Shown one piece after another: positions 50-25,715 of a stretch of DNA of 26,649 nucleotides. The notes beneath the pieces are model-generated. The model was not told the origin of the DNA. It searched no databases and saw nothing but the letters and a program-made list of their open reading frames with translations. The translations under genes and the position numbers were made by a program. How positions within the stretch are numbered: position 1 is the first letter of the stretch; every line of letters begins with the position of its first letter. The stretch comes from a virus (taxonomy: Duplodnaviria; Heunggongvirae; Uroviricota; Caudoviricetes). The DNA lies in IMG/VR virus record IMGVR_UViG_2778261572_000013, positions 1-26,649 of that record. The stretch is one strand, 5' to 3'.

Positions 50-81
50 AAAACAATAAGTTAGAGTAAAAACAATAAGTT
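50..81. repeat. Two direct copies of AAAACAATAAGTT (50-62 and 69-81), candidate integrase arm-type binding sites
   Basis: Exact 13-bp direct repeat with 19-bp period read in the sequence, located between the putative att core and the int 3' end. Confidence 0.4.
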
Positions 82-104
82 GGGTTGGTGGTCAGTGGTG
101 GTTA

Positions 105-1157
105 TTACGGGGTAATGCCAACCGCTGCCGCCACTTTGTCGCCACTTGGCAGCGTTGCCAGAGGATTGAAACGGAGCGCCGTTTCCAGATGATCTGGTGC
201 CAGATGTGCGTAACGCATAGTCATTTTTATATCGTGGTGTCCGAGAATTTTTTGTAAGGCGAGAATGTTTCCACCCGACATCATGAAGTGCGCCGCAAAC
301 GTATGGCGCAGAACGTGTGTGAGTTGACCGCGAGGGAGCACGATAGACGTTTTTTCCATCACGGATAAAAATTGAAAATAGCAGTCTGTAAAGAAATTGA
401 ACCCATCAAGCGCCATGATCTCTTCGTAAAGCTCTTTACTGATAGGGATGCTTCTGTTTTTCTTCCCCTTCGTTCTGACAAAGGTAATTCGGTATTTGGT
501 CACCTGTGAGCGGGTAAGATTTACGGCTTCACGCCAGCGTGCACCTGTGCTTAAGCATATCTTAACTACCAGTGCCAGAATTGGGTCCTGACGTTTGCAA
601 TCAGCCAGCAATTCAACAATCTGCTCATGGGTAAGCCATGCCATCTCTTTTTCTGCGATGGTGAATTTTCGCATGTTCTCCAGTGGGTTCGGATACGACC
701 ATTCGCCCAGACGGGATAGTTCGCTAAAAACACTACTTAGATAGCTTTGCTCCAGGTTAATGGTGACCGGGCTTGCTCCTTTCTTCCATTTCTCGCTGAA
801 GTAGATCTCGCCTGTCAGGCGTTTATCTCGATAGTGGGCAAACATTTTAGAGGTGAGATCGGTTGCAAGAGGATTGCCCAGAGCGTCAACCATCAACAGC
901 AATTTGTCATAGACATGCTGCCCAGCTGTCAGAGATTTACCATGTAGTTTGAACCATAGCTCAACCACGTCTTTCAGTGTTCGACGATCCACTGATTCAC
1001 CCAGCCAGGGCTTTGCTTCGGTTTCTTCCATCGTGTGGCGCTCAAAAGCCAGAGCTTCGCCTTTGGTGGCGAATTGTTTACGCACCCGACGCCCACTACG
1101 TCCGGCGGGGTAACATTCGCAAAGCCATTTTCCTGTGGTGAGTTTTCGTACTGCCAT
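105..1157 (-). CDS. int: Tyrosine recombinase / phage integrase (P2 Int-like)
   Basis: 350-aa ORF. C-terminal HxxR...H...Y catalytic region (LTHVLRHTFAAHFMMSGGNILALQKILGHHDIKMTMRYAHL) is typical of tyrosine integrases; first gene of the prophage as in P2. Confidence 0.93.
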   Translation of the reverse strand: MAVRKLTTGKWLCECYPAGRSGRRVRKQFATKGEALAFERHTMEETEAKPWLGESVDRRTLKDVVELWFKLHGKSLTAGQHVYDKLLLMVDALGNPLATDLTSKMFAHYRDKRLTGEIYFSEKWKKGASPVTINLEQSYLSSVFSELSRLGEWSYPNPLENMRKFTIAEKEMAWLTHEQIVELLADCKRQDPILALVVKICLSTGARWREAVNLTRSQVTKYRITFVRTKGKKNRSIPISKELYEEIMALDGFNFFTDCYFQFLSVMEKTSIVLPRGQLTHVLRHTFAAHFMMSGGNILALQKILGHHDIKMTMRYAHLAPDHLETALRFNPLATLPSGDKVAAAVGITP

Positions 1158-1230: not shown

Positions 1231-3000
1231 TCATACGTCAGGGGTAATCCAGTCGACTAAAGCCTCAATACTTTCGAAATCTGCACAGATATCTGAAAGA
1301 GGTTGTGTATCTGCTTTTGTTTTGAAATCAGCCCATACTGATTCATTTTTTTCTGTAAGACCCAAATGGTTTTCTATCGAACCATTTAGCCAAATCCAAA
1401 TATTTGCATTTCTCAGTTTTGCGGCTAATGATGACAAAAATTCTCTGGCGCCGGGCTTTTGAGACATAATAGCAAATGCTTCAGCTGCGGTAGTGTTACT
1501 ACCCTTTGTAGGCAAACCGGATCCATCGAGAGTGCATTCTCCATTAGCATGCATACTTCTCAAGATTTCTTTTAGTCGTAAAATATCCTCGTCATTATGT
1601 TCTAAGAAGTTGTTCCTTATTGCACCGCGGAACGCAAAATCTAAATCAACAATTGCTTTTGTAGGTATATCCATTGAATTTAGAATTTGCATCGTTTTAG
1701 ATATACTTTCAACGGACCCTGTTTCAATTAGTGCTATTTGCATCTGACCTAATGTTTTATTTTTAACTTTGTTAAAAATAAATGGGAGCAGAGTAGTCTC
1801 TGTTTTACCTTCTGTTAGTATTACATTGTTAGCAAACAAAACTTTTGAAGACTGTGTTAATGAAAATAAATGGGTTGCTTGTGCTGGTCGTTGTTCGATT
1901 ACTTTATTGACTGCTTCTTTTAATGTTAATCTGCAATGAGTGCCACGCTGACTGTTTTTTCTGATTAACACAGTGTCTTTTGCTAAGTCAGAGGTAATCA
2001 TTTGAGATGAATGGGTAGAGAAAATTATTTGATATCCATGATGAGATAGTGTTTTTAGAGATTCTCTAATTTGTTCGATAGCAAATGGGTGAAGATATAA
2101 CTCAGGTTCATCTATTAACAGTAGAGTAGTTGTTTTAATATCATCACCGTTGGTTATATCAGCTAAATGTCTTATTAGAGCCATCTGAATCGAACGCTGT
2201 GTGCCATGACCATAAGAAGAACAGTCACGAGCAATGCCGGGAAATGAATCTTCATATACTTTTACAGTCCCTGATTTAAATATATCCTTGAAGTCAGGGA
2301 GTTCGAAGTGTAGTTTTAAACTTATCCCAGGGAAGAAATCAGCAACTTTACTACTTATTGAATCATCAATATCATTGAGGTCCGATATTCGTTTATTACC
2401 GGTTGCAGTCATTCTTCTATTAACGGCATTTAAATGGCTTAGTATCCTTTGAGTGTGCTTCTCTTCTATTTTGCAACTCAATTCTGCCAGCAACTTACCT
2501 ATTGTAGTTCCTGTTTTTGATTTTGAAGAATCATCCGCTGCATTTTCCATTGCACCTATACGTATTGGGTCTGGAAATAAAGCTTTTATCGCATTCTCAA
2601 TACCCGTTGGTGATGTCCTGAATTCGTTATTTTCTGGGTTTTTAATTAATAATCTGACGTCTTTTGCACTTTGAGCACCAACAGGCTGTTGACGTTTAAA
2701 TATCAATACCCCATCAATAATGTAGGGTGAAATTCTAGTTCTGTTTTCTTCTGTTAAAGCTGACAAAATATCTTCAGTAATACCCTTAACTGTACCTATA
2801 ACTTCTATAGGGTTATCTGGATTAGTATAATCATCAGAGGACAAAAGTTTTTTCTTAAAAAGCCATTCAATAGCATTTAAAATCGTTGACTTACCAGCAT
2901 TGTTGTAACCGATTAAAGGCGTGAATGAAGAAAAATTGATATCAATATCTTTGCAAGATCTAAAGTTTTTTATAGAAATCTTTGAAAGATGATGATTCAT
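1231..3000 (-). CDS. OLD-family ATP-dependent endonuclease (ABC-type ATPase N-terminus plus Toprim C-terminus)
   Basis: 589 aa. Walker A GYNNAGKST, signature-like HGTQRS, Walker B LLLIDEPELYLHP, H-loop FSTHS, then Toprim-like E (ILTEGKTE) and DxD (VDLDFA). Size matches P2 Old (586 aa). AT-rich relative to the phage core. No adjacent helicase gene. Confidence 0.75.
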   Translation of the reverse strand: MNHHLSKISIKNFRSCKDIDINFSSFTPLIGYNNAGKSTILNAIEWLFKKKLLSSDDYTNPDNPIEVIGTVKGITEDILSALTEENRTRISPYIIDGVLIFKRQQPVGAQSAKDVRLLIKNPENNEFRTSPTGIENAIKALFPDPIRIGAMENAADDSSKSKTGTTIGKLLAELSCKIEEKHTQRILSHLNAVNRRMTATGNKRISDLNDIDDSISSKVADFFPGISLKLHFELPDFKDIFKSGTVKVYEDSFPGIARDCSSYGHGTQRSIQMALIRHLADITNGDDIKTTTLLLIDEPELYLHPFAIEQIRESLKTLSHHGYQIIFSTHSSQMITSDLAKDTVLIRKNSQRGTHCRLTLKEAVNKVIEQRPAQATHLFSLTQSSKVLFANNVILTEGKTETTLLPFIFNKVKNKTLGQMQIALIETGSVESISKTMQILNSMDIPTKAIVDLDFAFRGAIRNNFLEHNDEDILRLKEILRSMHANGECTLDGSGLPTKGSNTTAAEAFAIMSQKPGAREFLSSLAAKLRNANIWIWLNGSIENHLGLTEKNESVWADFKTKADTQPLSDICADFESIEALVDWITPDV

Positions 3001-3043: not shown

Positions 3044-3982
3044 TTATTGTATTGTTAAGATAATGCTGGCTATAATTTGAATATCCTCAATGGAACACTC
3101 AAAATCCTTACTCCCACCAGAAACAAGAATTTTGTTCTTAGGTAAACGAGTTAACTCTTTTAAAGATAACTCATTGTCAATTCCTACTAACCATTTTCCA
3201 TCTCTAATTAGGTGAAATTCTTTATCACATATGACATGTTTTTCTCCATTGCTTACAAACATCAAGCTGCTAGTTTCTTGCTTCGGAAGTAGACACCGAT
3301 CCATGGATAAAAAACCTGACTCGACAAGCACGCCATTGACCAAATTGAACTTATTTAAAATTACAGTGTTTTCTTCTTGTGAACTATTTGGTGTTTCGAT
3401 TCCTGTAACTAGCCAGGCGAGATCCGCTTTGGTTTCTAATGCGCATTTAATCACCCAATCCGCAGGGAAAGAATCTCGCATGTATCGTGTGGCTAATGTG
3501 CTTTTTGAAATACCAAGGTGGTCGGCTAAGGCTTGGCGGGTTTTAAACCCGTAAGCATTAACAATCCTCTCTATCGCGGCTTTTCCTCCGTTAGTAAGCT
3601 CAATGTGATTCTCAATGCGGCGCTTAAAGGATGATTGATGAGCGTTGCTGTTAAACCCCTCATGTGGGACTGTTTCATCATGTTGTTCCACATAAGGGGG
3701 GAAACTTTCTTCTGCATTGTTAGAACCAAAGGCCAGCCATTCTAGGGATGCGCCAGTTTCCATTGAACATATAACAACCCAATCAGCAGGGAAGGTATCG
3801 CGTGCATATCTATTAGCCATTGTGCTTTGTGAAATACCAAGATGCTTACAGAAGGCTTGGCGTGATTTGAAACCATAGGCCTTGAGTATCCTCTCAATGA
3901 CTTTTTGCCCTCCACGATTCTGCATGACCATAGCTTTCAGACTATCTTCAATATGGCGAAATGTGATTTTTTGAGTTGACAT
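3044..3982 (-). CDS. 186 CI-like immunity repressor with tandemly duplicated N-terminal DNA-binding domain
   Basis: 312 aa. Residues about 29-85 and 137-193 are paralogous (IERI.AYGFK.RQA..HLGIS.ST.A.RY.RD.FPADWV..C..ET.A.L.WL), resembling the phage CI repressor N-terminal domain. Divergent from the cox/cII operon, as expected for the repressor. Confidence 0.7.
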   Translation of the reverse strand: MSTQKITFRHIEDSLKAMVMQNRGGQKVIERILKAYGFKSRQAFCKHLGISQSTMANRYARDTFPADWVVICSMETGASLEWLAFGSNNAEESFPPYVEQHDETVPHEGFNSNAHQSSFKRRIENHIELTNGGKAAIERIVNAYGFKTRQALADHLGISKSTLATRYMRDSFPADWVIKCALETKADLAWLVTGIETPNSSQEENTVILNKFNLVNGVLVESGFLSMDRCLLPKQETSSLMFVSNGEKHVICDKEFHLIRDGKWLVGIDNELSLKELTRLPKNKILVSGGSKDFECSIEDIQIIASIILTIQ

Positions 3983-6721: not shown

Positions 6722-7575
6722 GTACCATCCTGAAATGGGCGGGTAATAAAACTGCCATTATGTCCGAACTGAAAAAACATCTTCCTGCTGGCCCGCGACT
6801 GGTTGAACCTTTCGCGGGTTCCTTTGCTGTGATGATGGAGACGGATTACCCCAGCTATCTTGTTGCGGATATTAATCCTGATTTAATCAACCTCTATAAA
6901 AAGGTTGCTGCTGATTGCGAGGCGTTTATATCTCGTGCCAGAGCTTTATTTGAGGAAGCAAACAGGGAGTTGGCTTATTACAACATAAGGCAGGAGTTTA
7001 ATTACTCCACTGAAATTACTGATTTCATGAAAGCGGTATATTTCCTGTATCTCAATCGTCATGGTTACCGTGGGTTATGTCGTTATAACAAGAGCGGGCA
7101 TTTCAACATTCCATACGGTAATTATAAAAATCCGTATTTCCCTGAAAAAGAAATTCGCGCATTTGCAGAGAAAGCCCAGCGAGCAACGTTTATCTGCGCC
7201 AGCTTTGATGAAACGCTGGCGATGCTGCAGGTGGGGGATGTGGTGTATTGCGATCCGCCTTATGACGGTACGTTTTCCGGCTATCACACTGACGGCTTCA
7301 CTGAAGATGACCAGTATCACCTGGCATCTGTTCTTGAATATCGATCATCAGAAGGTCATCCAGTCATTGTTTCTAACAGTGACACATCCCTGATCCGTTC
7401 GCTGTATCGAAATTTCACTCACCACTACATCAAGGCAAAACGCAGCATCGGCGTAGCAGCTGGTGAGAGTAAATCTGCAACAGAAATCATCGCTGTTTCT
7501 GGGGCGCGCTGCTGGGTGGGATTTGATCCTTCGCGTGGCGTGGATAGTTCTGCCGTGTACGGAGTGCGTGCATGA
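6718..7575 (+). CDS. dam: DNA adenine methyltransferase (Dam/D12-class N6-MTase), orphan
   Basis: 285 aa from ATG 6718 (AGGAGG RBS). N-terminal KWAGNK AdoMet motif and catalytic DPPY motif. No partner restriction enzyme nearby. Confidence 0.85.
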
Positions 7576-9986
7576 GCCATGCTGATATGAACAACTGCAG
7601 CGGCTTTAACGAGGCCGCCGCAGCATTCTCATGGAACAGCCCGAAAAAGGCTATTAACCCTTATCTGGACCCGGCGGAAGTTGCGCCGGTTTCTGCGCTT
7701 TCAAACCTGATCACTCTGTACGCTGCCGATAACGAGCAGGAACAACTGCGCCGCGAGGCACTGAGTGATCAGGTTTGGGAGCGTTATTTCTTTAATGAAT
7801 CCCGTGATCCTGTCCAGCGCGAAATGGAGCAGGATAAGCTCATTAGCCGGGCAAAGTTGGCGCATGAGCAGCAGCGTTTTAACCCGGACATGGTCATTCT
7901 GGCAGACGTTAACGCCCAGCCTTCCCATATCAGCAGGCCGCTGATGCAACGTATTGAATACTTCAGCAGCCTTGGCAGGCCAAAGGCTTATTCCCGCTAT
8001 TTGCGTGAGACGATTAAGCCATGTCTGGAACGGCTGGAGCATGTACGCGACAGTCAGCTATCCACTTCTTTTCGCTTTATGGCAAGCCATGAAGGGCTGG
8101 ACGGCCTGCTGATTCTGCCTGAAATGAGTCAGGATCAGGTGAAACGCCTGTCCACCCTTGTTGCTGCGCATATGAGCATGTGCCTTGATGCAGCTTGTGG
8201 CGATTTGTATGCCACCGATGACGTTAAGCCAGAAGAAATCCGCAAGACATGGGAAAAGGTGGCAGCAGAAACCCTGCGACTGGATGTCATACCGCCTGCG
8301 TTTGAGCAACTCCGCCGGAAAAGAAACCGCCGTAAACCCGTGCCCTATGAACTCATTCCGGGTTCGCTGGCGCGTATGTTGTGCGCCGATTGGTGGTACC
8401 GGAAATTATGGAAGATGCGTTGCGAATGGCGGGAAGAGCAGTTGCGTGCTGTTTGCCTGGTCAGCAAAAAAGCATCTCCCTATGTCAGCTATGAAGCCGT
8501 GATGCATAAACGTGAGCAGCGCCGTAAGTCGCTGGAGTTTTTCCGTTCTCATGAACTGGTGAACGAAGACGGCGACACGCTGGACATGGAGGATGTGGTA
8601 AACGCCAGCAGCAGCAACCCTGCGCATCGCCGCAATGAGATGATGGCCTGTGTTAAAGGTCTGGAGCTTATCGCGGAAATGCGCGGTGACTGCGCCGTTT
8701 TCTACACCATCACCTGTCCGTCACGTTTCCATTCCACGCTAAATAACGGCAGGCTCAACCCGACCTGGACAAATACGACGGTAAGACAAAGCAGTGATTA
8801 TCTGGTCGGCATGTTTGCTGCATTTCGTAAGGCGATGCACAAAGCCGGATTGCGCTGGTATGGCGTGCGGGTGGCTGAGCCGCATCATGACGGTACAGTT
8901 CACTGGCACCTGTTGTGTTTTATGCGCAAAAAAGATCGCCGCACCATTACTGCTTTGTTGCGTAAGTTTGCCATTCGTGAAGACCGCGAGGAGCTGGGTA
9001 ATAACACGGGACCACGCTTTAAGTCTGAGCTGATAAACCCGCGCAAAGGTACGCCAACAAGCTACATCGCGAAATACATCAGTAAGAACATTGACGGGCG
9101 TGGTCTGGCTGGCGAGATCAGCAAGGAAACGGGTAAATCCCTGCGTGATAACGCTGAATACGTTAATGCCTGGGCGTCTCTGCATCGTGTTCAGCAATTC
9201 CGCTTCTTTGGAATTCCGGGGCGTCAGGCTTACCGTGAACTGCGATTGCTGGCTGGTCAGGCGGCAAGGCAACAGGGGGACAAAAAAGCAGGTGCGCCGG
9301 TACTGGATAACCCGCGCCTTGATGCAATCCTGGCTGCTGCTGATGCTGGTTGTTTTGCCACCTACATCATGAAGCAGGGCGGCGTACTGGTTCCCCGCAA
9401 ATATCACCTCATCAGAACTGCTTATGAAATCAACGAAGAACCGACCGCATATGGCGATCACGGTATTCGTATTTATGGCATCTGGTCACCCATTGCAGAG
9501 GGCAAGATCTGCACTCATGCGGTGAAGTGGAAAATGGTTCGTAAGGCCGTTGACGTTCAGGAGGCGGCAGCCGACCAGGGCGCTTGCGCCCCTTGGACTC
9601 GTGGCAATAACTGTCCCCTTGCTGAAAATTTGTACCAACAAGGGAAAGACAAATCAGCTGATGGAGATACCAGAACGGATATCACCCGCATGGATGACAA
9701 GGAGTTGCACGATTACCTGCACAGTATGAGCAAAAAAGAGCGCCGGGAACTGGCTGCAAGGTTACGCCTGGTGAAACCGAAACGGCGTAAAGACTACAAA
9801 CAGCGAATTACAGACCATCAGCGACAGCAGCTCGTCTATGAACTGGAGTCCAGAGGATTTAATGGCAGCGAGAAAGAGGTCGATTTACTCCTTCGCGGCG
9901 GCAGTATTCCGTCAGGAGCAGGTCTGCGTATCTTCTATCGGAACCAGCGTTTGCAGGAAGATGATAAGTGGCGAAACCTGTATTAA
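7572..9986 (+). CDS. A: Replication initiation endonuclease (P2 gpA-like rolling-circle initiator)
   Basis: 804-aa ORF at the P2 gene A position, start overlapping the dam stop. Contains an HxH-type motif (GTVHWHLL) and a Tyr-containing region ([10 protein letters not shown]) consistent with Rep-type nickases. Confidence 0.85.
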
Positions 9987-10139: not shown

Positions 10140-10328
10140 ATGCAGGACTATTTTTTGGAGTCTTTGAAGCTCCAGCGCATTGATTTTTTTCTTAAGCTTG
10201 TAGCGGCTAGTGAGTGTAGTGATGAAGAGAAGGGGCTGGCTTTGCAGTGGGTTTCTGAACTGACAGATGAACTCATGGCAAAAATCAGAAGCCACGAATA
10301 CAACCGCTCAATGGATGTCATCAGCTGA
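10140..10328 (+). CDS. Small SOS-controlled protein, possible Tum-like antirepressor N-terminal module
   Basis: 62-aa ORF with strong RBS (AGGAGG) directly downstream of the LexA box; position matches the LexA-controlled tum locus of phage 186 after gene A. Confidence 0.45.
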   Translation: MQDYFLESLKLQRIDFFLKLVAASECSDEEKGLALQWVSELTDELMAKIRSHEYNRSMDVIS

Positions 10329-10338
10329 GGGGACTTTT

Positions 10339-10572
10339 ATGCGCATTGAAATAATGATCGATAAAGAGCAGAAGATTAGCCAGTCTACCCTGGACGCCCT
10401 TGAATCCGAGCTTTACCGCAATCTGCGCCCCCTGTATCCCAAAACGGTAATTCGTATCCGTAAAGGTAGCTCTAACGGTGTGGAACTGACCGGACTGCAA
10501 CTGGACGAAGAAAGGAAGCAAGTGATGAAAATTATGCAGAAGGTGTGGGAAGACGACAGCTGGCTGCATTAA
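10339..10572 (+). CDS. DinI-family protein
   Basis: 77 aa starting MRIEIMIDKEQ, ending WEDDSWLH; resembles DinI (MRIEVTIAK ... WESADDWF). RBS GAGGGGA. Confidence 0.75.
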   Translation: MRIEIMIDKEQKISQSTLDALESELYRNLRPLYPKTVIRIRKGSSNGVELTGLQLDEERKQVMKIMQKVWEDDSWLH

Positions 10573-10842: not shown

Positions 10843-11058
10843 ATGTCAAGCATCGCCGCATTTAGCCTGGGTAACCCAGTTGAACGTCTGGCAAGGGTTC
10901 TTAAAGAGAACCAGGACAAACTCAATCTTAGTAAAGATGGTTTTGTGTCCGTAGACTTGTCTAACAAAAGAGCAATGGATGCCATCAAGGCACAGATGGA
11001 TAAGCTTGAAGGCATCAAAACGAGCACTGTAAAAGAGAAAACTAATAGAACCAGATAA
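10843..11058 (+). CDS. Hypothetical small soluble protein (cassette 1, gene 1)
   Basis: 71 aa with strong RBS (AAGGGGGAG). AT-rich. Stop overlaps the next start (TAATG). Confidence 0.55.
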   Translation: MSSIAAFSLGNPVERLARVLKENQDKLNLSKDGFVSVDLSNKRAMDAIKAQMDKLEGIKTSTVKEKTNRTR

Positions 11059-11900
11059 TGGCAACATTACTTTTAGCAGTGATTTTGGTTAGTGGTTTTA
11101 TTTATGTAAACCTATCACTTTCAACAAGATACCGATATAAGCGTTCCAACGGCTGGGACGCTTATTTTTTTGTGGCTGCCTGGGGTATCGTTTTTTTTCT
11201 CCTTGGCGGTTTTTTCACCTTTATTTTGAACGTCAGCGGAGGGTTTCGTTGGCTGGCTAATGCCTTGAATCTAACACCTGACAGTTTTAATGGCATGTTG
11301 TCTTCATCGAAAGACAAACTTCAAAGAATAAATGAAATCAAACAGATAGCATGGGTTATGATTTCAATTGTCCTCGCTGCGATTTCAGGTTTTGGAAATA
11401 AGTTACGCACATCACGTGGAGATCGTCGCTGGGATGCCTTAGCTAAAGCTGTGGGTAATAACGCTTTCGAATCATTACTCATGGAAGCGTCCGCAAGACA
11501 GTTTCCGATCATAGCAACTCTGTCGTCTCGCAAAATCTATGTTGGTCTTGTTACTTGTCCGGCGTTAGAAAACGGGCTTTCAGAGCACCTTGAACTTCTC
11601 CCGATGTTAAGCGGATATCGGGATAAAGATGATCTAACGATTAGTATCACGACTAACTATCACCAACATTATCTTGATAGTGGTGTGATAAGTGGAATGT
11701 CTCGGCTTAATATCGAAGATTTCCGTGTGCTCATACCAAAAGATGAGGTTGAAACAATTTCGTTTTTTGATACTGAGACATATAACAAATTTAAAGAAAA
11801 TGAAGCCAGGGATAGAAAGAGCTGTCGAAAGATTGGTAGTAAAAGTGCATCTTCGCACAGCAAGCGTGCAGCAGATACTGAGTCAAATGATCGTGCATGA
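11058..11900 (+). CDS. Hypothetical membrane protein (cassette 1, gene 2)
   Basis: 280 aa; three hydrophobic segments in the first about 115 residues, then a hydrophilic domain of about 165 aa. Translationally coupled to the 71-aa gene. Confidence 0.55.
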   Translation: MATLLLAVILVSGFIYVNLSLSTRYRYKRSNGWDAYFFVAAWGIVFFLLGGFFTFILNVSGGFRWLANALNLTPDSFNGMLSSSKDKLQRINEIKQIAWVMISIVLAAISGFGNKLRTSRGDRRWDALAKAVGNNAFESLLMEASARQFPIIATLSSRKIYVGLVTCPALENGLSEHLELLPMLSGYRDKDDLTISITTNYHQHYLDSGVISGMSRLNIEDFRVLIPKDEVETISFFDTETYNKFKENEARDRKSCRKIGSKSASSHSKRAADTESNDRA

Positions 11901-11948
11901 CTATGCTGCATGAGATCGCATGATCGTTTGAGGATCGTTTTTGCTAAG

Positions 11949-11972
11949 GCCCGCCAGAACTGGCGGGCTTTT
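11949..11972 (+). terminator. Rho-independent terminator after cassette 1
   Basis: GCCCGCCAG-aa-CTGGCGGGC perfect 9-bp stem followed by TTTT. Confidence 0.7.
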
Positions 11973-12231
11973 GCATAGATCATGCACCTGCATGAAAACT
12001 ACTACATAAAGCGGGCAGGCGTGGCGGGGATACGAGCGCGCGCTGTCGGTATTTTCAAAATTTAAGTAAGATAGTAAATGCAAAATGTGTATCACTCTAT
12101 CGGGTACAGAAAAACCATTCAGAAACTATAATTGAACAGTAACAAACGTGATGATGTTCACTTTTTTAAATTTTTTATATAAACTGATGGGTACTATGAC
12201 AGTAATATGCCAGCTTGCGTGAGAATGAATT

Positions 12232-12696
12232 GTGGAAAAAGAGCTAAATCAAAATCAGATCAGTGAAGTGCAGATTAATGTCTGCCACAAAATCTATGAA
12301 TTTTTTAAGTCTTTAGATGGAGCATCCGATTTCAAAATCGAAACTGAAACCAGTGGCGATGATGGCGATCTAAGTTTTTCTTTTGAGCAATCAAAGACTA
12401 TTTTTAAAGTGGAAGTGCTTTCTACAGAATACTTTAAATTAATTAGAATTATAAATGCATTTGACTTTACCGCAACAAAGTCTATTGAGGAAATGAATTT
12501 ATTAGGCAGGGCAAATCAATTTAATGCATATGCAGTGGGCATTAAGGCTCTGGTTCATACTAAAAAAGTAGGTTATGTTGATTTCTGCGTAGATATATTA
12601 TCTTCTAAAGGTGACGTTAATTCTAGCGATCTTAATTTATCCTTGGTCTTACTAAGAAGTGCGCCAATGAATTTTCTGGCAGTAACTAAGGACTAG
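12232..12696 (+). CDS. Hypothetical acidic soluble protein (cassette 2, gene 1)
   Basis: 154-aa ORF from a GTG start, AT-rich, no recognised motif; followed 10 bp later by the next gene. Confidence 0.45.
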   Translation: MEKELNQNQISEVQINVCHKIYEFFKSLDGASDFKIETETSGDDGDLSFSFEQSKTIFKVEVLSTEYFKLIRIINAFDFTATKSIEEMNLLGRANQFNAYAVGIKALVHTKKVGYVDFCVDILSSKGDVNSSDLNLSLVLLRSAPMNFLAVTKD

Positions 12697-12706
12697 TGAG
12701 GACAAT

Positions 12707-13480
12707 ATGCCAACAAAGCCTAGTTTAGATGAAAATTCAACGTTAAACTTGAAGGCGCAATCTTATTTAAAAGCTGTCTCGGTAGATGCCTCAAATGATT
12801 CTACCCACAATGGATGGAATGCTGATGTAATTATTTTTTTTGTTTTCATTGTTGTTGTAATGGCTCTGACACTATCAAAATGGCTTCAGAATAAAATAGA
12901 TGAATTTATTTCAAAAAAATATTTTAGATGGGTTTTTTCTGGGGTAATTCTTCCAGCGATATCGTTAGGCTTAGCAAGCTACACAACAGCATCAAATCAA
13001 AAATTTGTATACATTGCTACAATTATAGTAAGTCTTGTGATTGGTGAGCGAGCTTCTGCACTGACAGCTGAGAAATCCGAACAACAACTTGAGGCTGAGA
13101 CAGGAAAATTAACTAGCAAAATAAGTGTGCTAGAAGCTGCACATACTAAGGCTTTGGAAAAGAAAGATGCTGAACTTGCAGCTAAAGGTAATGAAATTAG
13201 AGCTGTATCTGATGAGCTTACTAAAAGAGTTGATGAGTTACGTCAGAATTATTTGCGAAGATTGTACGAAATAGCTACAGATCATCAAGAGGCTGATTGT
13301 GTTGTCATTAAATTGAGAGTAAAAGAGGTGGCTCAAGATATTATGGCAACAAGTGGGCTTCTTTTAACTATGGATAGTATTGATTATCAGGTGAGAAATA
13401 ACCAAGTTCCGTTGCCACAGGAAAGTTCAATTGTTTATGAATATGCTATGAAGAATGCTAAAGCTCGAAATCAGCAATGA
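12707..13480 (+). CDS. Hypothetical membrane protein with coiled-coil domain (cassette 2, gene 2)
   Basis: 257 aa with RBS GTGAGGA; three hydrophobic segments (about residues 41-113), then a heptad-like charged region (EKSEQQLEAETGKLTSKISVLEAAHTKALEKKDAELAAKGNEIRAVSDELTKRVDELRQ). Confidence 0.55.
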   Translation: MPTKPSLDENSTLNLKAQSYLKAVSVDASNDSTHNGWNADVIIFFVFIVVVMALTLSKWLQNKIDEFISKKYFRWVFSGVILPAISLGLASYTTASNQKFVYIATIIVSLVIGERASALTAEKSEQQLEAETGKLTSKISVLEAAHTKALEKKDAELAAKGNEIRAVSDELTKRVDELRQNYLRRLYEIATDHQEADCVVIKLRVKEVAQDIMATSGLLLTMDSIDYQVRNNQVPLPQESSIVYEYAMKNAKARNQQ

Positions 13481-13484
13481 TTTT

Positions 13485-13516
13485 AAAGCCAAGTCAGTGT
13501 TAACTGACTTGGCTTT
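13485..13516. terminator. Bidirectional hairpin terminator between cassette 2 and portal gene
   Basis: Perfect 14-bp inverted repeat AAAGCCAAGTCAGT-gtta-ACTGACTTGGCTTT flanked by T/A runs, between convergent genes. Confidence 0.7.
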
Positions 13517-13518
13517 AA

Positions 13519-14547
13519 TTACAGTTTATATTCAGAGAAATTTATAATGCGCTCACCCAACCAATAATTAATCTCTGCAATCCGCATTTGCAGGGCTACT
13601 AGCTCATTTCGCACAAAAACATTTGCCGCCTTCTCTACATCCCCAAACCCTCCAACATTATTAGGCATTATCCCCATCATTTGCGGCGGTACGCGGTGCG
13701 CCGCCATCATGTCGTCCCGGCTCACGTTCTTGATATTCAGAAACTCATCCTTCGCCGCGACTTCTGACAGAGGAATGATCTGAAGCCCATCCTTTTTGCC
13801 GTTAGGCGAGTACATAAACAGGTTGCGGAAGTTACCCGGTCCTTTGGCGCTTTTCATTGCGTTGCGGAGGTTGTTCACATCCTCCTGGTTTTGCGCGGCA
13901 TCGGTCATGTACATGATGAAGCCTGCATGACTGCCGTTAATGTAATACTTCCGGCGGAACAGCGTGGCGGACTCGTTGAGCAGAGCGGATGGAATAGCAG
14001 AAAGATAGCCAGGCAGGCCGTAGATCTCCTGATTAATATCCGGTTCCATCAGATGAAAGATGCTGCCTTTCGTGAACTGATACGGCTGGGTTGCCATACC
14101 GTATTGCACAAACCAGTAGGTATCCAGGTCTAATCCGCGTCGAGTGTATTTTGCCAGGGCAGGTTCAAGGGCGATAACTTCACCGAAGCGGTTCGTGCGT
14201 TTCTCCAGGTAGGCATTACCAAATACCAGATAGTCCTGCACAAAACGTGAAAAAGCCTGCTGGCTGAGCAACGGGTGAGGGATATAGGTGCTGGTCAGAA
14301 TGTTGCACTTTACTGCAATCGGTGAGCTGTGGTGTACGGCGGCGCGGAAGGTTCGCGCCAGGCCGTCGAAACTCACTGGTGGCTCATACCAACGGTCCAT
14401 CTGTACGCATTCCACATAGTCCAGCAGTTCGCGGCGGTCCAGAACAGGAACGGGATCACCGAAGCTGAATGCTTCGGCTGAAGTCTGGTTTTTATGCTGG
14501 ATCTGTTTCGTCGCCGCAGCGCGGTTCTTCTTACTCTTTCCCATCAA
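13519..14547 (-). CDS. Q: Portal vertex protein (P2 gpQ-like)
   Basis: 342 aa (P2 Q is about 344 aa), leftward, adjacent to the terminase remnant, in the P2 cos-Q-P arrangement. Confidence 0.8.
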   Translation of the reverse strand: MMGKSKKNRAAATKQIQHKNQTSAEAFSFGDPVPVLDRRELLDYVECVQMDRWYEPPVSFDGLARTFRAAVHHSSPIAVKCNILTSTYIPHPLLSQQAFSRFVQDYLVFGNAYLEKRTNRFGEVIALEPALAKYTRRGLDLDTYWFVQYGMATQPYQFTKGSIFHLMEPDINQEIYGLPGYLSAIPSALLNESATLFRRKYYINGSHAGFIMYMTDAAQNQEDVNNLRNAMKSAKGPGNFRNLFMYSPNGKKDGLQIIPLSEVAAKDEFLNIKNVSRDDMMAAHRVPPQMMGIMPNNVGGFGDVEKAANVFVRNELVALQMRIAEINYWLGERIINFSEYKL

Positions 14548-15236
14548 AAAATCTCCACAATATTGCTGGTATTGGCGGACTCGCCCTGCAGTGGTTCGTT
14601 AAACAGTGCGTGCATTGTTGCCCAGGCCAGATCGGCATGGCTGGCTTCTTCGCTGCGGCTGGCTTCATAGGTCGGGCGGTTGCCGCTGGCGGTGGTGGCG
14701 CGACGGATTGCCATGAATGACTGCGCAATGTCGGTGTGCCCGGCGTCAAACTCAAGACGGCGGTGGCTGATAATGTCGTAGGCCTTGAGTACCAGGGCGT
14801 TTTTAACGTTGGGGTTGTAGACAAACTCCCGGACGGCAGGAAAAAACGCTTTCACGTTCTCGTAAACCCCGTGACCAACGCCGGTTGAGTCGATGCCGAT
14901 ATAGGTCACGTTGTACTGTTCGGTCAGTTTTTTGATGGCGTCAGCTTGGGCGCGAAAGTCCATTCCGCGCCACTGGTGACGCTCAAGAATGCGGAACTTA
15001 CCGCCTGGCACGGCTGGCGGTGCCACCACCACGCATCCGGCGCTGTCGCCGTTCTGCGTACCTTTTGCCGGGTCATAACCGATCCACACTTCGCGCCAGC
15101 CAAACGGGCGCAGGGCCAGTGCATGAAAGTCGGTCCAGACTTCCCAGCTGTCGGTACAAATACCGCGCATTGTTTCACTGCCCCCATCACCGCAACCATA
15201 AGGCTCCAGTAAGTTTTTTCTAACGGAGCACGGCTC
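14544..15236 (-). pseudogene. P: Terminase large subunit (gpP) 3' fragment; N-terminal ATPase domain missing
   Basis: Open frame ends where the O gene starts. The segment from about WIGYDPAKG...DSAGCVVVAPP onward resembles a terminase nuclease domain. No Walker A region is present, and the frame's first 47 codons are antisense to the O start. Confidence 0.6.
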
Positions 15237-16070
15237 ATGACAGTGAAAGCAAAGCGTTTTCGCATCGGGGTGGAAGGTGCCACCACCGACGGACGCGAAA
15301 TCCAGCGTGAATGGCTGGAACAGATGGCAGCCAGCTACAACCCGGCGGTGTATACCGCGCTGATTAACCTTGAGCACATCAAGTCTTATCTGCCGGACAG
15401 CACCTTTAACCGCTACGGCAAGGTGACGGCGCTGTTTGCTGAAGAAATCACGGAGGGTCCGCTGGCGGGCAAGATGGCACTGTATGCCGACGTTGAGCCA
15501 ACGGAGTCCCTGGTGGAACTGGTGAAAAAAGGCCAGAAATTATTCACCTCTATGGAAGTCAGCCCGAAGTTTGCTGATACGGGCAAAGCCTACCTGGTCG
15601 GCCTGGCAGCCACTGATGACCCAGCCAGTCTGGGTACGGAAATGCTGACATTCAGCGCCAGCGCAGCCCATAACCCGCTGGCAAACCGCAAGCAGAATCC
15701 CGCCAATCTCTTTACCGCCGCAGAGGAAACGGTGATCGAACTGGAAGAAATCCAGGATGACAAACCGTCCCTGTTTGCCCGTGTCACGGCGCTGTTTACA
15801 AAAAAAGAGCAGTCCGACGATGCCCGGTTTTCTGATGTGCATAAGGCCGTGGAACTGGTCGCCACTGAGCAGCAAAACCTGAGTGTGCGCACCGAAAAAT
15901 CCCTTTCTGAGCAGGAAGAACGTCTGTCTGAGCTGGAGACAGTTCTGCAGGCACAACAGGCCGCCTTTAACGAACTGGTGGACAAGCTGAGCCATGAAGA
16001 CAGCCGCCAGGACTACCGCCAGCGTGCAACGGGCGGTAACGCCCCCGCTGACACTCTGACCAATTGCTGA
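15237..16070 (+). CDS. O: Capsid scaffolding protein (P2 gpO-like)
   Basis: 277 aa (P2 O is about 284 aa), first gene of the rightward head operon, GGAG RBS. Confidence 0.8.
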   Translation: MTVKAKRFRIGVEGATTDGREIQREWLEQMAASYNPAVYTALINLEHIKSYLPDSTFNRYGKVTALFAEEITEGPLAGKMALYADVEPTESLVELVKKGQKLFTSMEVSPKFADTGKAYLVGLAATDDPASLGTEMLTFSASAAHNPLANRKQNPANLFTAAEETVIELEEIQDDKPSLFARVTALFTKKEQSDDARFSDVHKAVELVATEQQNLSVRTEKSLSEQEERLSELETVLQAQQAAFNELVDKLSHEDSRQDYRQRATGGNAPADTLTNC

Positions 16071-17894: not shown

Positions 17895-18125
17895 ATGAAG
17901 TTTGTTGCGCCAGAACAGGCACCGGAACAGGCGGAAATCATCAGAAATACGCCGTTCTGGCCTGATGTGGACCTGTCGGAGTTTCGCAGCGTGATGCGCA
18001 CTGACGGCACGGTGACGCAGCCGCGTTTAAAGCAGGTTGCCCTGTCTGGACCGACGGCATTGGTAATACGTCGGGCGTCATTCCCGGCAAAACCATTACG
18101 GAGCGACAGGCAGCAGAAGGGCTGA
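17895..18125 (+). CDS. L: Head completion protein gpL-like, probably 3'-truncated
   Basis: ATG 17895 with AGGAGAAAG RBS; only 76 codons (P2 L is about 169 aa); frame is lost where lysozyme-like sequence begins in another frame. Confidence 0.4.
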   Translation: MKFVAPEQAPEQAEIIRNTPFWPDVDLSEFRSVMRTDGTVTQPRLKQVALSGPTALVIRRASFPAKPLRSDRQQKG

Positions 18126-23870: not shown

Positions 23871-23917
23871 CAACAAAAAACCCATCAACCTTGAACCGAA
23901 ATGGCGGGGTTGATGGG
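23871..23917 (-). terminator. Rho-independent terminator of ybjL, containing the putative attR core
   Basis: Perfect 10-bp stem CCCATCAACC/GGTTGATGGG followed on the minus strand by U-tract; the 14-mer AACAAAAAACCCAT (23872-23885) is identical to 17-30 at the left end. Confidence 0.6.
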
Positions 23918-24029
23918 CTCCACAAAATGGGGACATCAAAGAAAAGCAGTGGCACTAATTAAGACTGATGCCCTGCGGAAAAGTTCTGCGGTTGTGCAAA
24001 AAAATTTCATTTTCAGGGCAACTTCAGTT

Positions 24030-25715
24030 TTATCCTAATCCTGGCCATACCATGACGATGATTGTCCCTGCCAGCGTCAGCAGGACGTTGGCGATTGCAT
24101 AGGTGCCCGCATAGCCCAGCGCCGGGATGTTACTGCGAGCTGTATCACTGATGATCTCCATTGCCGGCGCGCAGGTACGTGCGCCCATCATTGCGCCGAA
24201 CAACAGTGCGCGGTTCATTCGCAATACATAAGCACCGAACAAGAAACAGATAACCACGGGCACCAGACTGACAATCAATCCGGCAATCAACATCTGACCG
24301 CCAATCGCGCCCAGGCCGTTATTAATACCGCTACCGGCGCTCAGACCAACGCCTGCTATAAACACCATCAAGCCGAACTCTTTCACCATGCTTAATGCAC
24401 CTTGCGGAATGTAACCGAAGGTCGGGTGGTTAGCACGCATAAAGCCCAGCATAATTCCGGCGAATAACAACCCGGCAGCGTTCCCCATGCCGAAACTGAA
24501 TGTGCTGAACTGGAAGGTGATCATCCCGATCATCAGCCCAATAACAAAGAAGGCGCAAAATGCCAGCAGGTCAGTGACCTGGCTGTGAATCGAGATAAAG
24601 CCGATGCGATCGGCGATGGTTTTTACGCGACGGGCATCACCGCTGACTTGTAAAACGTCACCTTTGTTAAGCACGACGTTGTCATCTATCGGCATCTCAA
24701 TCTGGCTACGAATGACGCGGTTAAGGAAGCAACCGTGATCGGTCAACTTCAGTTGTGCGAGACGTTTACCTACAGCGTTATGGTTTTTAACGACCACTTC
24801 TTCAGTGACGATACGCATGTCGAGAAGGTCACGATCGAAAACTTCTTTACCGTTACGGAAGCTGGGATCGAGTCGGGCATGGGCGTCGGGATAGCCTACC
24901 AACGCTATTTCATCGCCCATTTGTAGCACGGCATCACCGTCTGGATTTGCCAGAATCCCGTTACGTCGAATACGTTCAATGTAGCAGCCGGTTTGTCGAT
25001 AAATACCCAGTTCACGCAGATTTTTGCCGTCGGTCCAGGCCACCAGCTCCGGGCCGACGCGATAGGCGCGGATCACCGGTAAATAAACCTTACGGTTGGC
25101 ATCAGTGTCCAGGCCACGTTCGCGGGCGATTTGCTGGGCGCTGGTCTGTAAGTCCTGATGCTGCAATTTCGGCAAGTAACGCGCACCAACAATCAAACTC
25201 ACCAGACCGATTAAATAGGTTAAGGCATACCCGAGGCTCAGATTATCCAGTGCCAGTGAGAGCTGCCTGCTTTCCATGCCGGAATGACGCAGTGTATCGC
25301 CAGCACCGACCAGAACCGGTGTCGACGTCATAGAGCCTGCTAACATACCGGCCGTCAGGCCAATATCCCAGCCAAACAGCTTACCTAACCCTAAGGCGAT
25401 CACCAGCGCACTGCCAACCATCACCAGTGCTAACATTAGGTAATTTTTCCCATCGCGAAAAAAAATGGAAAAAAAGTTCGGTCCGGCTTCGACCCCGACG
25501 CAGAAAATAAACAGCATAAAGCCAAGATTAAGCGCATCGGTGTTAATGCTGAAATGTTGTTGGCCTAATAACAGCGATACGACTAAAACGCCAATGGAAT
25601 TACCCAGTTGGATCGAACCAAGTCGTAACTTTCCGAGACATAGCCCAAGCGCGAGGACCACAAATAATAACAGAATGTAATTCCCATTTAACAATTCGGC
25701 GACGTTTATATTCAC
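24030..25715 (-). CDS. ybjL: Putative transport protein YbjL (AspT/YidE/YbjL family)
   Basis: 561-aa polytopic membrane protein recognised as E. coli-type YbjL from its sequence ([20 protein letters not shown]...), with TM blocks flanking a central soluble domain. Confidence 0.85.

What the first reader, a model, noticed from the sequence alone, without database searches (positions are those of the whole stretch)
12232..13480. Candidate novel two-gene cassette 2 in the same hotspot: 154-aa acidic protein plus 257-aa 3-TM coiled-coil protein
This is a second independent module, separated from cassette 1 by a terminator and a 330-bp AT-rich spacer, and closed by a perfect 14-bp-stem bidirectional terminator (13485-13516). 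Gene 1 is soluble and acidic. Gene 2 has three TM helices followed by an extended heptad-like coiled coil and a C-terminal domain. Neither resembles a core P2 gene. Two unrelated membrane-effector cassettes stacked in a defence hotspot make this the strongest candidate in the window for an undescribed anti-phage or exclusion system.
Basis: inference. Interest (0 to 1): 0.75.

Follow-up and report, generated by a model that had tools for sequence, protein, structure and literature searches.

The report
Unknown two-gene prophage cassette beside cos
A defective P2/186-like prophage carries a rare two-gene operon, never described before, made of a small chaperone-like protein and a three-pass membrane protein; it sits in the exact slot where related prophages keep proven anti-phage systems, so it is a credible but untested new defence or exclusion module.

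Summary
Both ORFs are real: 12232-12696 (154 aa) and 12707-13480 (257 aa). They form a tight operon that ends in a perfect 16-bp hairpin.

One correction matters. The "AT-rich spacer" upstream contains the phage cos site (about 12018-12036). Cassette 2 therefore lies between cos and the portal gene Q, and cassette 1 lies on the other side of cos.

The pair occurs in seven diverged lineages, at 89% down to 22% identity. It is always in this order, 4-13 nt apart, and always in the cos-Q slot. The two genes diverge in parallel (r=0.96) and are under purifying selection (dN/dS 0.13-0.38). The pair is still intact in two decayed prophage remnants (Cedecea, Enterobacter) and in this window's own deletion-ridden prophage.

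Neither protein matches any PADLOC, Pfam, PHROG or NCBIfam family. In relatives the same slot holds retron Ec86-type systems, an AIPR gene or an ATPase+HNH pair.

Anti-phage function is inferred from context only.

The parts
11946..11972 (+). Backbone intrinsic terminator that closes the gpA-side (cassette 1) transcription unit. GC-rich 11-bp stem followed by UUUU.
   Evidence: dG -28.3 kcal/mol for the 61-nt context, z -4.5. The sequence is conserved with other P2-like elements.
11985..12043 (.). P2/186-type cos site. The cohesive-end core GGCGTGGCGGGGATACGAG lies at about 12018-12036. It divides cassette 1 (right end of virion DNA) from cassette 2 (left end).
   Evidence: 98% identity to the annotated 'putative cos site' at bases 5-59 of phage Cartapus, and the phage SEN8 record ends at window 12017; this segment is present in 1242 of 5426 complete E. 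coli genomes; the motif lies upstream of the pair in loci L001, L003-L011 and L013. The 19-nt core was assigned by comparison with the 186/P2 cos sequence recalled from memory.
12044..12231 (+). Cargo-specific AT-rich 5' region of cassette 2. It holds promoter-like elements: a perfect -10 TATAAT at 12127-12132, and TTCACT-17-TAAACT at 12157-12185.
   Evidence: homology to other cargo types ends just after cos; both elements are conserved in the Cedecea copy (84% identity overall); promoter-like sites are not enriched over shuffles, so no promoter is proven.
12232..12696 (+). Gene 1: 154 aa, cytosolic, pI 4.95, with a predicted YbjN / type-III-secretion class-I chaperone ('TY-chaperone') fold.
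12707..13480 (+). Gene 2: 257 aa inner-membrane protein. Layout: variable acidic N-tail (1-38, predicted periplasmic); TM1 39-57; Lys/Arg-rich loop 58-74 (cytoplasmic); TM2 75-93 with invariant Pro83; 6-residue loop; TM3 100-116 running into a long amphipathic helix (to about 192, length variable between lineages); conserved C-terminal domain (about 169-257).
   Evidence: dN/dS 0.15-0.25. The TetR_C_4 hit (22 bits against a cutoff of 21) appears in only 2 of 7 family members, and a PDB profile search finds no TetR.
13483..13518 (.). Perfect 16-bp hairpin that fills the whole gap between the gene-2 stop (13480) and the portal stop (13519). Probably a shared convergent terminator for cassette 2 and the late P-Q operon.
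   Evidence: dG about -25 kcal/mol, z -8.7; the diverged L001 and L011 copies carry a different, canonical GC hairpin with A/T runs at the same position, so the function is conserved but the sequence is not.
13519..14547 (-). Portal gene Q, the backbone right border of the slot (context, not part of the cassette).
   Evidence: It is 83-86% identical across loci whose cassette proteins are only 22-49% identical.

Best explanation
Cassette 2 is a self-contained accessory ('moron') operon, presumably expressed in the lysogen. It occupies the cos-to-portal slot of P2/186-like prophages.

It encodes an obligate pair:
- a cytosolic protein with the YbjN/type-III-secretion-chaperone fold;
- an N-out/C-in three-pass inner-membrane protein, whose third TM helix continues into a long amphipathic cytoplasmic helix and a conserved C-terminal domain.

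Most likely it is an anti-phage module with toxin-antitoxin-like, abortive-infection logic (comparable in logic to lambda RexAB). In this model the chaperone-like subunit binds an extended segment of the membrane protein's cytoplasmic part and keeps it inactive. An infection cue, such as a phage protein that competes for the peptide-binding groove (partner switching, as ExsC and CesT do), releases the membrane protein. The membrane protein then oligomerises through its amphipathic helix and compromises the membrane, stopping the infecting phage.

Shown: gene reality, operon structure, pair conservation, slot position, predicted topology and fold.
Inferred: expression in the lysogen, physical interaction, the trigger, the membrane effect and the anti-phage phenotype.
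For: Position:
- The pair lies between gpA and gpQ, the P2 hotspot of Rousset et al. (PMC9122126).
- More precisely it is in the cos-Q sub-slot. In relatives this slot carries, in the same orientation: retron St85/Ec86-type effector+RT (BL21, E. coli C, JNE082640), AIPR (phage RE-2010) and AAA ATPase+HNH.
- Its G+C is 34%, against 51-53% for gpA and Q.
- A 2026 preprint found that 6 of 8 randomly chosen unknown-function loci in the P4 satellite hotspot conferred defence, and it predicts antiviral function for 15-32% of unknown P2 proteins.

Obligate pair:
- 7 lineages, same order, 4-13 nt apart.
- Identities to the window are 89/45/44/34/24/23% for gene 1 and 89/49/44/32/22/24% for gene 2, with r=0.96.

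Selection:
- dN/dS is 0.13-0.38.
- The cassette diverges far faster than the adjacent portal, which stays 83-86% identical.

Retention:
- Both ORFs are intact in the Cedecea remnant, where only cos and fragments of Q are left.
- Both are intact in the Enterobacter remnant, where cos and Q have decayed.
- Both are intact in this window's prophage, which has lost terminase and tail genes.

Parts:
- Gene 1 has the TY-chaperone fold. This fold binds extended peptides and acts in partner-switching circuits (ExsC-ExsE and CesT-CsrA structures are among the hits).
- TY-chaperones have already been predicted as components of conflict systems (PMC9503650).
- Gene 2 has a conserved positive-inside topology.
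- Transmembrane proteins in hotspot systems are generally taken to be suicide effectors (PMC9122126).
- Weak, sub-threshold similarity of TM2-TM3 plus the helix to a PADLOC '2TM effector' model in 2 of 7 members, and to SLATT_4 in 1 of 7.
Against: - There are no experimental data and no homology to any validated defence protein. The 2TM/SLATT and LeoBC signals are sub-threshold and inconsistent across the family.
- The gene-1 model is only moderately confident: one of five models reached pLDDT 66.7 and the others 44-48. The gene-2 model is poor (pTM 0.27), so its C-terminal domain is uncharacterised.
- No complex prediction could be run, so the gene 1-gene 2 interaction is pure inference.
- The family was found only in the P2-like cos-Q slot or its remnants: nothing in 2.9 M IMG/VR contigs, 100k GTDB species representatives or 50,697 phage records. 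Many defence systems, by contrast, move between element types.
- Retention in remnants is equally expected for a selfish addiction module.
- No promoter is demonstrated.
Confidence: 0.45

Rival explanations
1. Superinfection exclusion. The membrane protein sits in the inner membrane with its hypervariable N-tail in the periplasm. It blocks genome entry of incoming phages, in the manner of T4 Imm, P22 SieA or HK97 gp15, without killing the cell. Gene 1 helps its folding or insertion, or regulates it.
For: The predicted periplasmic N-tail is the most variable segment (mean pairwise identity 0.19, against 0.37-0.48 for loops and TM2-TM3), as expected for a surface in an arms race. The topology is conserved. 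The slot is a hotspot. The family is confined to the P2 lineage.
Against: Known Sie proteins are usually single small genes. A strictly co-inherited cytosolic chaperone-fold partner and a 140-residue conserved cytoplasmic domain are not explained. The variable tail could simply be unconstrained.
Confidence: 0.15
2. Selfish toxin-antitoxin (addiction) module. Gene 2 is a membrane toxin and gene 1 its labile antitoxin. The pair persists because losing it kills the cell, and it has no dedicated anti-phage role.
For: The organisation is classic: a small upstream gene followed by a tightly coupled downstream gene (4-13 nt). The two genes diverge in strict parallel. The pair survives intact in heavily decayed prophage remnants. 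One of the decayed elements is this window's own defective prophage.
Against: No similarity to any known TA family. Chaperone-fold antitoxins are not established. Many TA modules in hotspots turn out to be abortive-infection systems anyway, so this overlaps with the best explanation.
Confidence: 0.12
3. Lysogenic-conversion or envelope-stress module. A YbjN-like regulator or chaperone acts with a membrane-anchored amphipathic-helix protein to modulate membrane homeostasis or stress tolerance of the host. This is analogous to the DUF2170 (BacA/YjfI) + PspA-homolog operons.
Against: Gene 2 has no PspA_IM30 or other stress-family signature. The cargo in this slot in relatives is overwhelmingly defence-type. 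Divergence much faster than the neighbouring portal fits conflict better than housekeeping.
Confidence: 0.13
4. A phage life-cycle function tied to cos: for example a DNA-end, injection or packaging accessory, which would explain why the pair is always next to cos.
For: Exclusive linkage to the cos-Q position in all 7 lineages.
Against: The cassette is absent from all 5426 complete E. coli genomes, 1242 of which carry the cos segment, and from 50,697 phage records. It is therefore dispensable. It is replaced by unrelated defence cargo in relatives. It is kept intact where the phage is dead.
Confidence: 0.04

Closest known systems
P2-like gpA-gpQ (cos-proximal) defence hotspot cargo (Rousset et al. 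2022, PMC9122126), e.g. retron Ec86/St85-type, AIPR and ATPase+HNH cassettes in the cos-Q slot
   Same: Same slot and same orientation. Low G+C, own regulatory ends, presence/absence polymorphism between near-identical prophages, and a two-gene layout with a transmembrane component.
   Different: Neither protein is homologous to any listed or PADLOC-modelled system. No activity data exist. Unlike much hotspot cargo, the family was found nowhere outside P2-like elements.
Lambda RexA/RexB (prophage-encoded cytosolic sensor plus polytopic membrane effector; abortive infection)
   Same: Working logic only: a two-gene prophage operon with one soluble partner and one multi-pass inner-membrane protein. 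The comparison is from general knowledge.
   Different: No sequence similarity; no PADLOC model of any kind reached E<=1 convincingly. Different folds, sizes and gene order. RexB has 4 TM helices and no long cytoplasmic helix or C-terminal domain.
YbjN / class-I T3SS chaperone ('TY-chaperone') superfamily: YbjN, AmyR, DR_1245, ExsC, CesT, BacA/YjfI (DUF2170)
   Same: Gene 1 has the predicted a-b-b-b-a-b-b-a fold, a size of about 150 aa and (here) an acidic pI. One homolog almost reaches the Pfam YbjN threshold. BacA/YjfI also sits directly upstream of a helical, membrane-associated partner.
   Different: No significant sequence similarity to host YbjN (hhalign probability 0.3%) or to any PDB chain. 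No secretion system is present. The partner is an integral membrane protein, not an effector or a PspA homolog.
SLATT / CBASS-type 2TM effectors (PADLOC PDLC00696; Pfam SLATT_4)
   Same: A TM hairpin followed by a cytoplasmic helix. There are weak hits with consistent register in 2 of 7 members: window 59-112 to model 26-79, and L011 57-172 to model 29-142.
   Different: E-values are only 8e-4 to 2e-2, and 5 of 7 members give nothing. There is an extra N-terminal TM and a large C-terminal domain. No nucleotide-signal synthase is encoded alongside.
Rst Hydrolase+3TM (P4 hotspot system, Rousset et al. 2022)
   Same: A two-gene hotspot cassette whose second protein has 3 TM helices.
   Different: hhalign probability between the 3TM proteins is 0.2%. 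Gene 1 is not a HAD hydrolase.

Membership tests
P2-like gpA-gpQ / cos-proximal hotspot cargo | Lies between replication gene A and portal gene Q, adjacent to cos | tested here: met
   gpA 7572-9986, cos about 12018-12036, cassette 12232-13480, Q 13519-14547
P2-like gpA-gpQ / cos-proximal hotspot cargo | The slot is variable between related prophages and holds defence systems in others | tested here: met
   Retron St85/Ec86-type, AIPR, AAA ATPase+HNH, 565-aa hypothetical in Fels-2. The cassette is absent from 5426 complete E. coli genomes, 1242 of which carry the cos segment.
P2-like gpA-gpQ / cos-proximal hotspot cargo | Confers resistance to phage infection | not testable with these tools
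   Needs plaque or liquid-infection assays.
YbjN / T3SS class-I chaperone superfamily (gene 1) | a-b-b-b-a-b-b-a fold of about 130-160 residues | tested here: met
YbjN / T3SS class-I chaperone superfamily (gene 1) | Sequence match to Pfam YbjN (PF10722) above the gathering score | tested here: inconclusive
   Window protein: no hit. L015 homolog: 19.5 bits against a cutoff of 22, E 1.2e-3, near full length. hhalign against host YbjN is negative.
YbjN / T3SS class-I chaperone superfamily (gene 1) | Homodimer that binds an extended partner peptide | not testable with these tools
   No multimer prediction was available; needs biochemistry.
TetR/AcrR regulator C-terminal domain (NCBI name of gene 2) | N-terminal TetR_N helix-turn-helix plus a conserved ligand-binding helical C-domain | tested here: not met
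   No TetR_N; the N-terminal half is 3 TM helices. TetR_C_4 scores 22.0 bits against a cutoff of 21, in only 2 of 7 family members. No TetR chain appears in the PDB profile searches.
SLATT / CBASS 2TM effector (gene 2) | Significant match to SLATT or 2TM effector models across the family | tested here: inconclusive
   PDLC00696 at E 8e-4 and 5e-3 in 2 of 7 members; SLATT_4 at E 0.022 in 1 of 7.
SLATT / CBASS 2TM effector (gene 2) | Association with a nucleotide-second-messenger synthase (SMODS/CD-NTase, TIR, SLOG) | tested here: not met
   The only partner in all 7 loci is the chaperone-fold gene 1.
RexAB-type abortive infection | Homology to RexA/RexB | tested here: not met
   No PADLOC hit to any such model. 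That PADLOC holds Rex models is from memory.
Type II toxin-antitoxin | Small upstream gene tightly coupled to a downstream toxin gene, inherited together | tested here: met
   Gaps of 4-13 nt in all lineages; r=0.96 co-divergence.
Type II toxin-antitoxin | Toxicity of gene 2, neutralised by direct binding of gene 1 | not testable with these tools
   Needs expression and interaction assays.
Psp-like DUF2170+PspA operons | The partner carries a PspA_IM30 domain | tested here: not met
   No PspA_IM30 hit in any of the 7 gene-2 homologs.

The most novel reading that the evidence does not exclude
A previously undescribed anti-phage system specific to the P2 lineage. In it, a YbjN/T3SS-chaperone-fold protein acts as a partner-switching sensor that gates a new type of 3-TM membrane effector. 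This would be the first defined molecular role for a YbjN-like protein in immunity. It would also be an example of a defence module that has co-diverged inside one phage slot (cos-Q) rather than shuttling between elements.
Probability: 0.3. Interest if true: 0.7.

Novelty: new variant of a known kind. Interest (0 to 1): 0.55.

Why it matters
If the cassette is active, it adds a new protein pair to the catalogue of prophage-borne defence systems. That pair has no Pfam, PADLOC or PHROG family.

It would link the enigmatic YbjN/T3SS-chaperone fold to immunity. It would also offer a small, tractable two-gene model for how a cytosolic adaptor controls a membrane effector.

Two further points stand on their own. 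First, cos splits the P2 'hotspot' into two separately evolving slots. Second, this cassette is retained intact in three independently decaying prophages in three genera (Escherichia, Cedecea, Enterobacter). That retention is a natural signature of domestication or addiction, and it can be used to prioritise other unknown hotspot genes.

Practically, NCBI's 'TetR/AcrR C-terminal domain' name for gene 2 is wrong and should not be propagated.

Tried and rejected
- Family scans of both proteins and of 5 further homologs each (Pfam, PADLOC, PHROGs, NCBIfam) gave nothing above threshold.
- TetR_C_4 was rejected as spurious: 2 of 7 members, no TetR_N, no TetR hits in the PDB.
- A LeoBC hit (E 1.6e-5) occurs in one homolog only, so it was not pursued.
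- SLATT/2TM similarity is too weak to claim.
- PDB sequence-profile searches for gene 1 found nothing even at E<=10.
- hhalign of the gene-1 family against the host YbjN proteins that happen to lie in two fetched loci was negative. The proximity of the integration site to ybjN is therefore coincidence.
- Gene 2 against the cassette-1 280-aa protein, and against Rousset's Hydrolase+3TM membrane protein, showed no relation.
- tblastn of both proteins against 50,697 phage records found no match.
- Pattern scans of IMG/VR and GTDB representative genomes found no relatives.
- Megablast against 5426 complete E. coli genomes matched only the cos segment.
- Foldseek against viral predicted structures (BFVD) gave nothing significant.
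- The AFDB library was unavailable.
- Rfam found no RNA family in the cassette.
- The supplementary tables of Rousset et al. contain no peptide from either protein, but those files were truncated when stored.
- Protein accessions were not found in any paper.
- Literature searches for YbjN or secretion chaperones in anti-phage contexts returned only the Aravind-lab prediction paper.
- The heptad (3.5-residue) periodicity test was negative; the periodicity is 3.6.
- The gene-2 AF2 model was too poor (pTM 0.27) for fold search, so none was run on it.
- P0019 from the representative search was dismissed as a coiled-coil false positive.
Full report
**1. Observation**

- The GTG start has a weak GAGA Shine-Dalgarno 7 nt upstream. 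The nearby ATG at 12225 is out of frame.
- Gene 2 is preceded by GAGGA and starts 10 nt after the gene-1 stop.
- The cassette has 34% G+C, against 51-53% for gpA and Q.
- Gene 1 has pI 4.95 and no hydrophobic segment.
- Gene 2 has one strongly hydrophobic segment (39-57) and two moderately hydrophobic ones (75-93, 100-116).
- The closing hairpin is a perfect 16-bp stem at 13483-13518. It fills the entire gap between the two convergent stop codons (dG about -25 kcal/mol, z -8.7). Its U-tract is weak, and the consensus scan did not flag it.
- The upstream terminator is real: 11946-11972.

**2. Key correction: the 'spacer' contains cos**

Window 11985-12043 is the conserved P2/186-type cos region. 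The evidence is as follows.
- It is the only part of 12000-13520 that matches other genomes. It occurs in 1242 of 5426 complete E. coli genomes and in many Peduoviridae.
- It is 98% identical to the annotated 'putative cos site' at bases 5-59 of phage Cartapus.
- The phage SEN8 record ends at window position 12017.
- The core GGCGTGGCGGGGATACGAG (12018-12036) resembles the 186 cohesive end as I recall it.
- Alignment of four lineages shows that homology stops just after cos, at about 12043.

Cassette 1 (10843-11900) and cassette 2 are therefore on opposite sides of cos. They lie at opposite ends of virion DNA and are adjacent only in the prophage.

**3. The prophage context**

The element is 186-like. 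It has int, a CI-type repressor, CII/CP76, Dam, gpA, a DinI/Tum-like gene, then Q, P and O.

It is defective. Compared with intact relatives (L004, L005) it has lost three stretches:
- 1.2 kb of terminase P, leaving only the nuclease domain at 14544-15377;
- 0.87 kb around the lysis genes;
- most tail genes.

Its right flank is rybB-ybjL.

**4. The pair is a conserved, obligate unit**

Exact or near-exact copies occur in a few dozen E. coli assemblies. They are always in the cos-Q slot of otherwise mosaic prophages. Those prophages carry different int-cI cargo and different cassette-1 alleles (71+280 aa versus 66+260+51 aa), while cassette 2 differs by only 2-3 nt in 1249.

Word-based and full-HMMER searches of billions of proteins found only six further lineages:

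| Locus | Host | Gene 1 + gene 2 (aa) | Context |
|---|---|---|---|
| L003 | Cedecea davisae | 154 + 257 | prophage remnant |
| L001 | not identified | 157 + 266 | cos - pair - portal |
| L011 | not identified | 154 + 252 | cos - pair - portal |
| L013 | not identified | 154 + 265 | cos - pair - portal fragment |
| L014 | not identified | 155 + 231 | cos - pair - portal |
| L015/L016 | Enterobacter | 161 + 228 | decayed prophage remnant |

In every case the small gene is a homolog of gene 1 and lies 4-13 nt upstream of the gene-2 homolog. Identity to the window falls in parallel:

| Gene | L003 | L001 | L011 | L013 | L014 | L015 |
|---|---|---|---|---|---|---|
| Gene 1 | 89% | 45% | 44% | 34% | 24% | 23% |
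| Gene 2 | 89% | 49% | 44% | 32% | 22% | 24% |

Over all 21 lineage pairs, r = 0.96. dN/dS is 0.13-0.38 for both genes. The adjacent portal stays 83-86% identical. The cassette is therefore either evolving much faster than the backbone or is an old polymorphism.

No relative was found in 50,697 phage records, 2.9 M IMG/VR contigs or 100k GTDB representative genomes.

**5. Retention in dead prophages**

In Cedecea the only phage material left at the orthologous chromosomal site (the same ybjL flank as the window) is cos, the intact pair and fragments of Q covering residues 146-342.

In Enterobacter the cos core has mutated (GGCGTAGTGTGGTTACGAG) and Q is barely recognisable, yet both ORFs are intact.

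Together with the window's own crippled prophage, this gives three independent cases in which the pair outlives the phage. That argues against a phage life-cycle role. It favours either a benefit to the host or addiction.

**6. What the proteins are**

*Gene 1*
- The AlphaFold2 model used a 4-sequence alignment. The best model reached pLDDT 66.7 and pTM 0.67; the other four were poor.
- Its topology is a-b-b-b-b-a-b-b-a.
- Foldseek's top 17 PDB hits are the same set, with E. coli YbjN and CesT added.
- Independently, the Enterobacter homolog aligns near full length to Pfam YbjN at E 1.2e-3. This is 19.5 bits, just under the cutoff of 22.
- There is no sequence-level link to host YbjN or to any PDB chain.
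- I conclude that gene 1 is a divergent 'TY-chaperone' fold protein. This fold binds extended peptides and is used in partner-switching regulation. The Aravind lab has already predicted it as a component of conflict systems (PMC9503650).

*Gene 2*
- The model is poor (pTM 0.27). Family conservation is still informative.
- The acidic N-tail is hypervariable (identity 0.19).
- TM1 follows, then a loop with +4 to +6 Lys/Arg in all lineages. By the positive-inside rule this loop is cytoplasmic, so the topology is N-out/C-in.
- A strongly conserved SKKxFRW-FSxxxLP TM2 comes next, then a 6-residue loop (xNQKF), then TM3 ending in SER(A/S)S.
- TM3 runs into a helix whose length varies between lineages: +11 residues in L001, -37 in L014 and L015.
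- A conserved C-terminal domain of about 90 residues completes the protein.
- Large hydrophobic residues in the helix recur every 3.6 residues (z 6.5-8.2), not every 3.5 (z about 1). It is an amphipathic helix or a straight bundle rather than a canonical heptad coiled coil.
- NCBI's 'TetR/AcrR C-terminal domain' name comes from a 22.0-bit hit (cutoff 21). That hit occurs in only 2 of 7 members and has no TetR support in PDB profile searches. It is a misannotation.
- Weak similarity of TM2-TM3 plus the helix to a PADLOC '2TM effector' model (2 of 7 members) and to SLATT_4 (1 of 7) is a lead, not a finding.

**7. Guilt by position**

I sampled the cos-Q sub-slot in relatives. It holds, in the same orientation:

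| Relative | Cargo in the cos-Q slot |
|---|---|
| BL21(DE3), E. coli C, JNE082640 | retron St85/Ec86-type effector + RT |
| E. coli strain 120899 | AAA ATPase + HNH endonuclease |
| Salmonella phage RE-2010 | AIPR protein |
| Fels-2 | 565-aa unknown protein |

The sample is small and biased towards close cos matches, but it is consistent.

A 2026 preprint reports that 6 of 8 randomly chosen unknown-function loci in the P4 satellite hotspot conferred defence. It also predicts antiviral function for 15-32% of unknown proteins in P2.

**8. Mechanism**

My best-supported reading (about 0.45) is a TA-like, abortive-infection or exclusion module. The chaperone-fold protein restrains or senses, and the membrane protein executes.
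- Shown: operon structure, co-inheritance, selection, slot position, predicted fold and topology.
- Inferred: expression in lysogens, physical interaction, the trigger and the membrane effect.

The rivals are injection-blocking superinfection exclusion (0.15), a Psp-like envelope module (0.13, by analogy with DUF2170+PspA operons), a purely selfish addiction module (0.12) and a cos-linked life-cycle role (0.04).

**9. Novelty and verdict**

The kind of thing is known: a two-gene cassette with a transmembrane protein in the P2 hotspot. The proteins are not. Neither has a family in any library, and no validated defence system I could find uses a YbjN/T3SS-chaperone-fold partner.

I rate it a new variant of a known kind, with interest 0.55. 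It is a well-delimited candidate under clear selection and it is experimentally cheap to test. It is also rare, and it is one of many unknown hotspot cassettes.

Noticed in passing
window 1231-3000 (-): A full-length Old (OLD-family ATPase-TOPRIM nuclease) defence gene (PADLOC Old, 778 bits). It sits between the integrase (105-1157) and a 312-aa CI-type repressor with a duplicated HTH (3044-3982). This is a second cargo site of the same prophage, at 33-36% G+C.
   Followed up: partly
window 14544-15377, 15149-15152, 18043-18046, about 18731: The prophage is defective. Relative to intact relatives (L004, L005) it has lost 1.2 kb of terminase P (only the Terminase_6C domain remains), 0.87 kb around the gpL/holin/lysozyme genes, and most tail genes. 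The cos site is therefore functionless here.
   Followed up: partly
window 11985-12043: The cos site splits the classical gpA-gpQ 'hotspot' into two slots (A-to-cos and cos-to-Q). Each has its own terminators, and homology between cargo types ends within a few bases of cos.
   Followed up: yes
L019 3611-5659 (BL21(DE3)), L020 (E. coli C), L018 (JNE082640): The St85-family (Ec86-type) retron of E. coli B and C (effector + RT) sits in exactly the same cos-Q slot of a P2-like prophage as cassette 2.
   Followed up: partly
window 23872-23950 (-) and 24030-25715 (-): RybB sRNA (105 bits) and ybjL form the right host flank. The same chromosomal site carries remnants of P2-like prophages in Cedecea (L003) and Enterobacter (L015). 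It is therefore a recurrent integration site across genera.
   Followed up: partly
window 10843-11900 vs L005/L008/L010 8208-9359: Cassette 1 exists as two alleles (71+280 aa versus 66+260+51 aa) next to an essentially identical cassette 2. The 71-aa and 280-aa proteins belong to PHROGs of unknown function (phrog_9843, phrog_3630).
   Followed up: no
L015 6297-7100 (-) and 9112-9711 (-): In the Enterobacter remnant the pair is flanked by a DUF3800 gene (upstream of the decayed cos) and a GIY_YIG_2 nuclease gene (beyond the decayed portal). These may be further accessory or defence cargo of the ancestral element.
   Followed up: no
window 12707-13480: NCBI/RefSeq names this protein 'TetR/AcrR family transcriptional regulator C-terminal domain-containing protein' (e.g. 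WP_089653160.1). The name comes from a borderline Pfam hit that the rest of the family does not share.
   Followed up: yes
window 10267-10572 (+): A DinI-like ORF (Pfam DinI, 80 bits), annotated as TumB-like in Fels-2. It is probably the 186-type SOS-inducible antirepressor region. The ORF as listed (101 aa) is longer than the 77-aa gene called in relatives.
   Followed up: no
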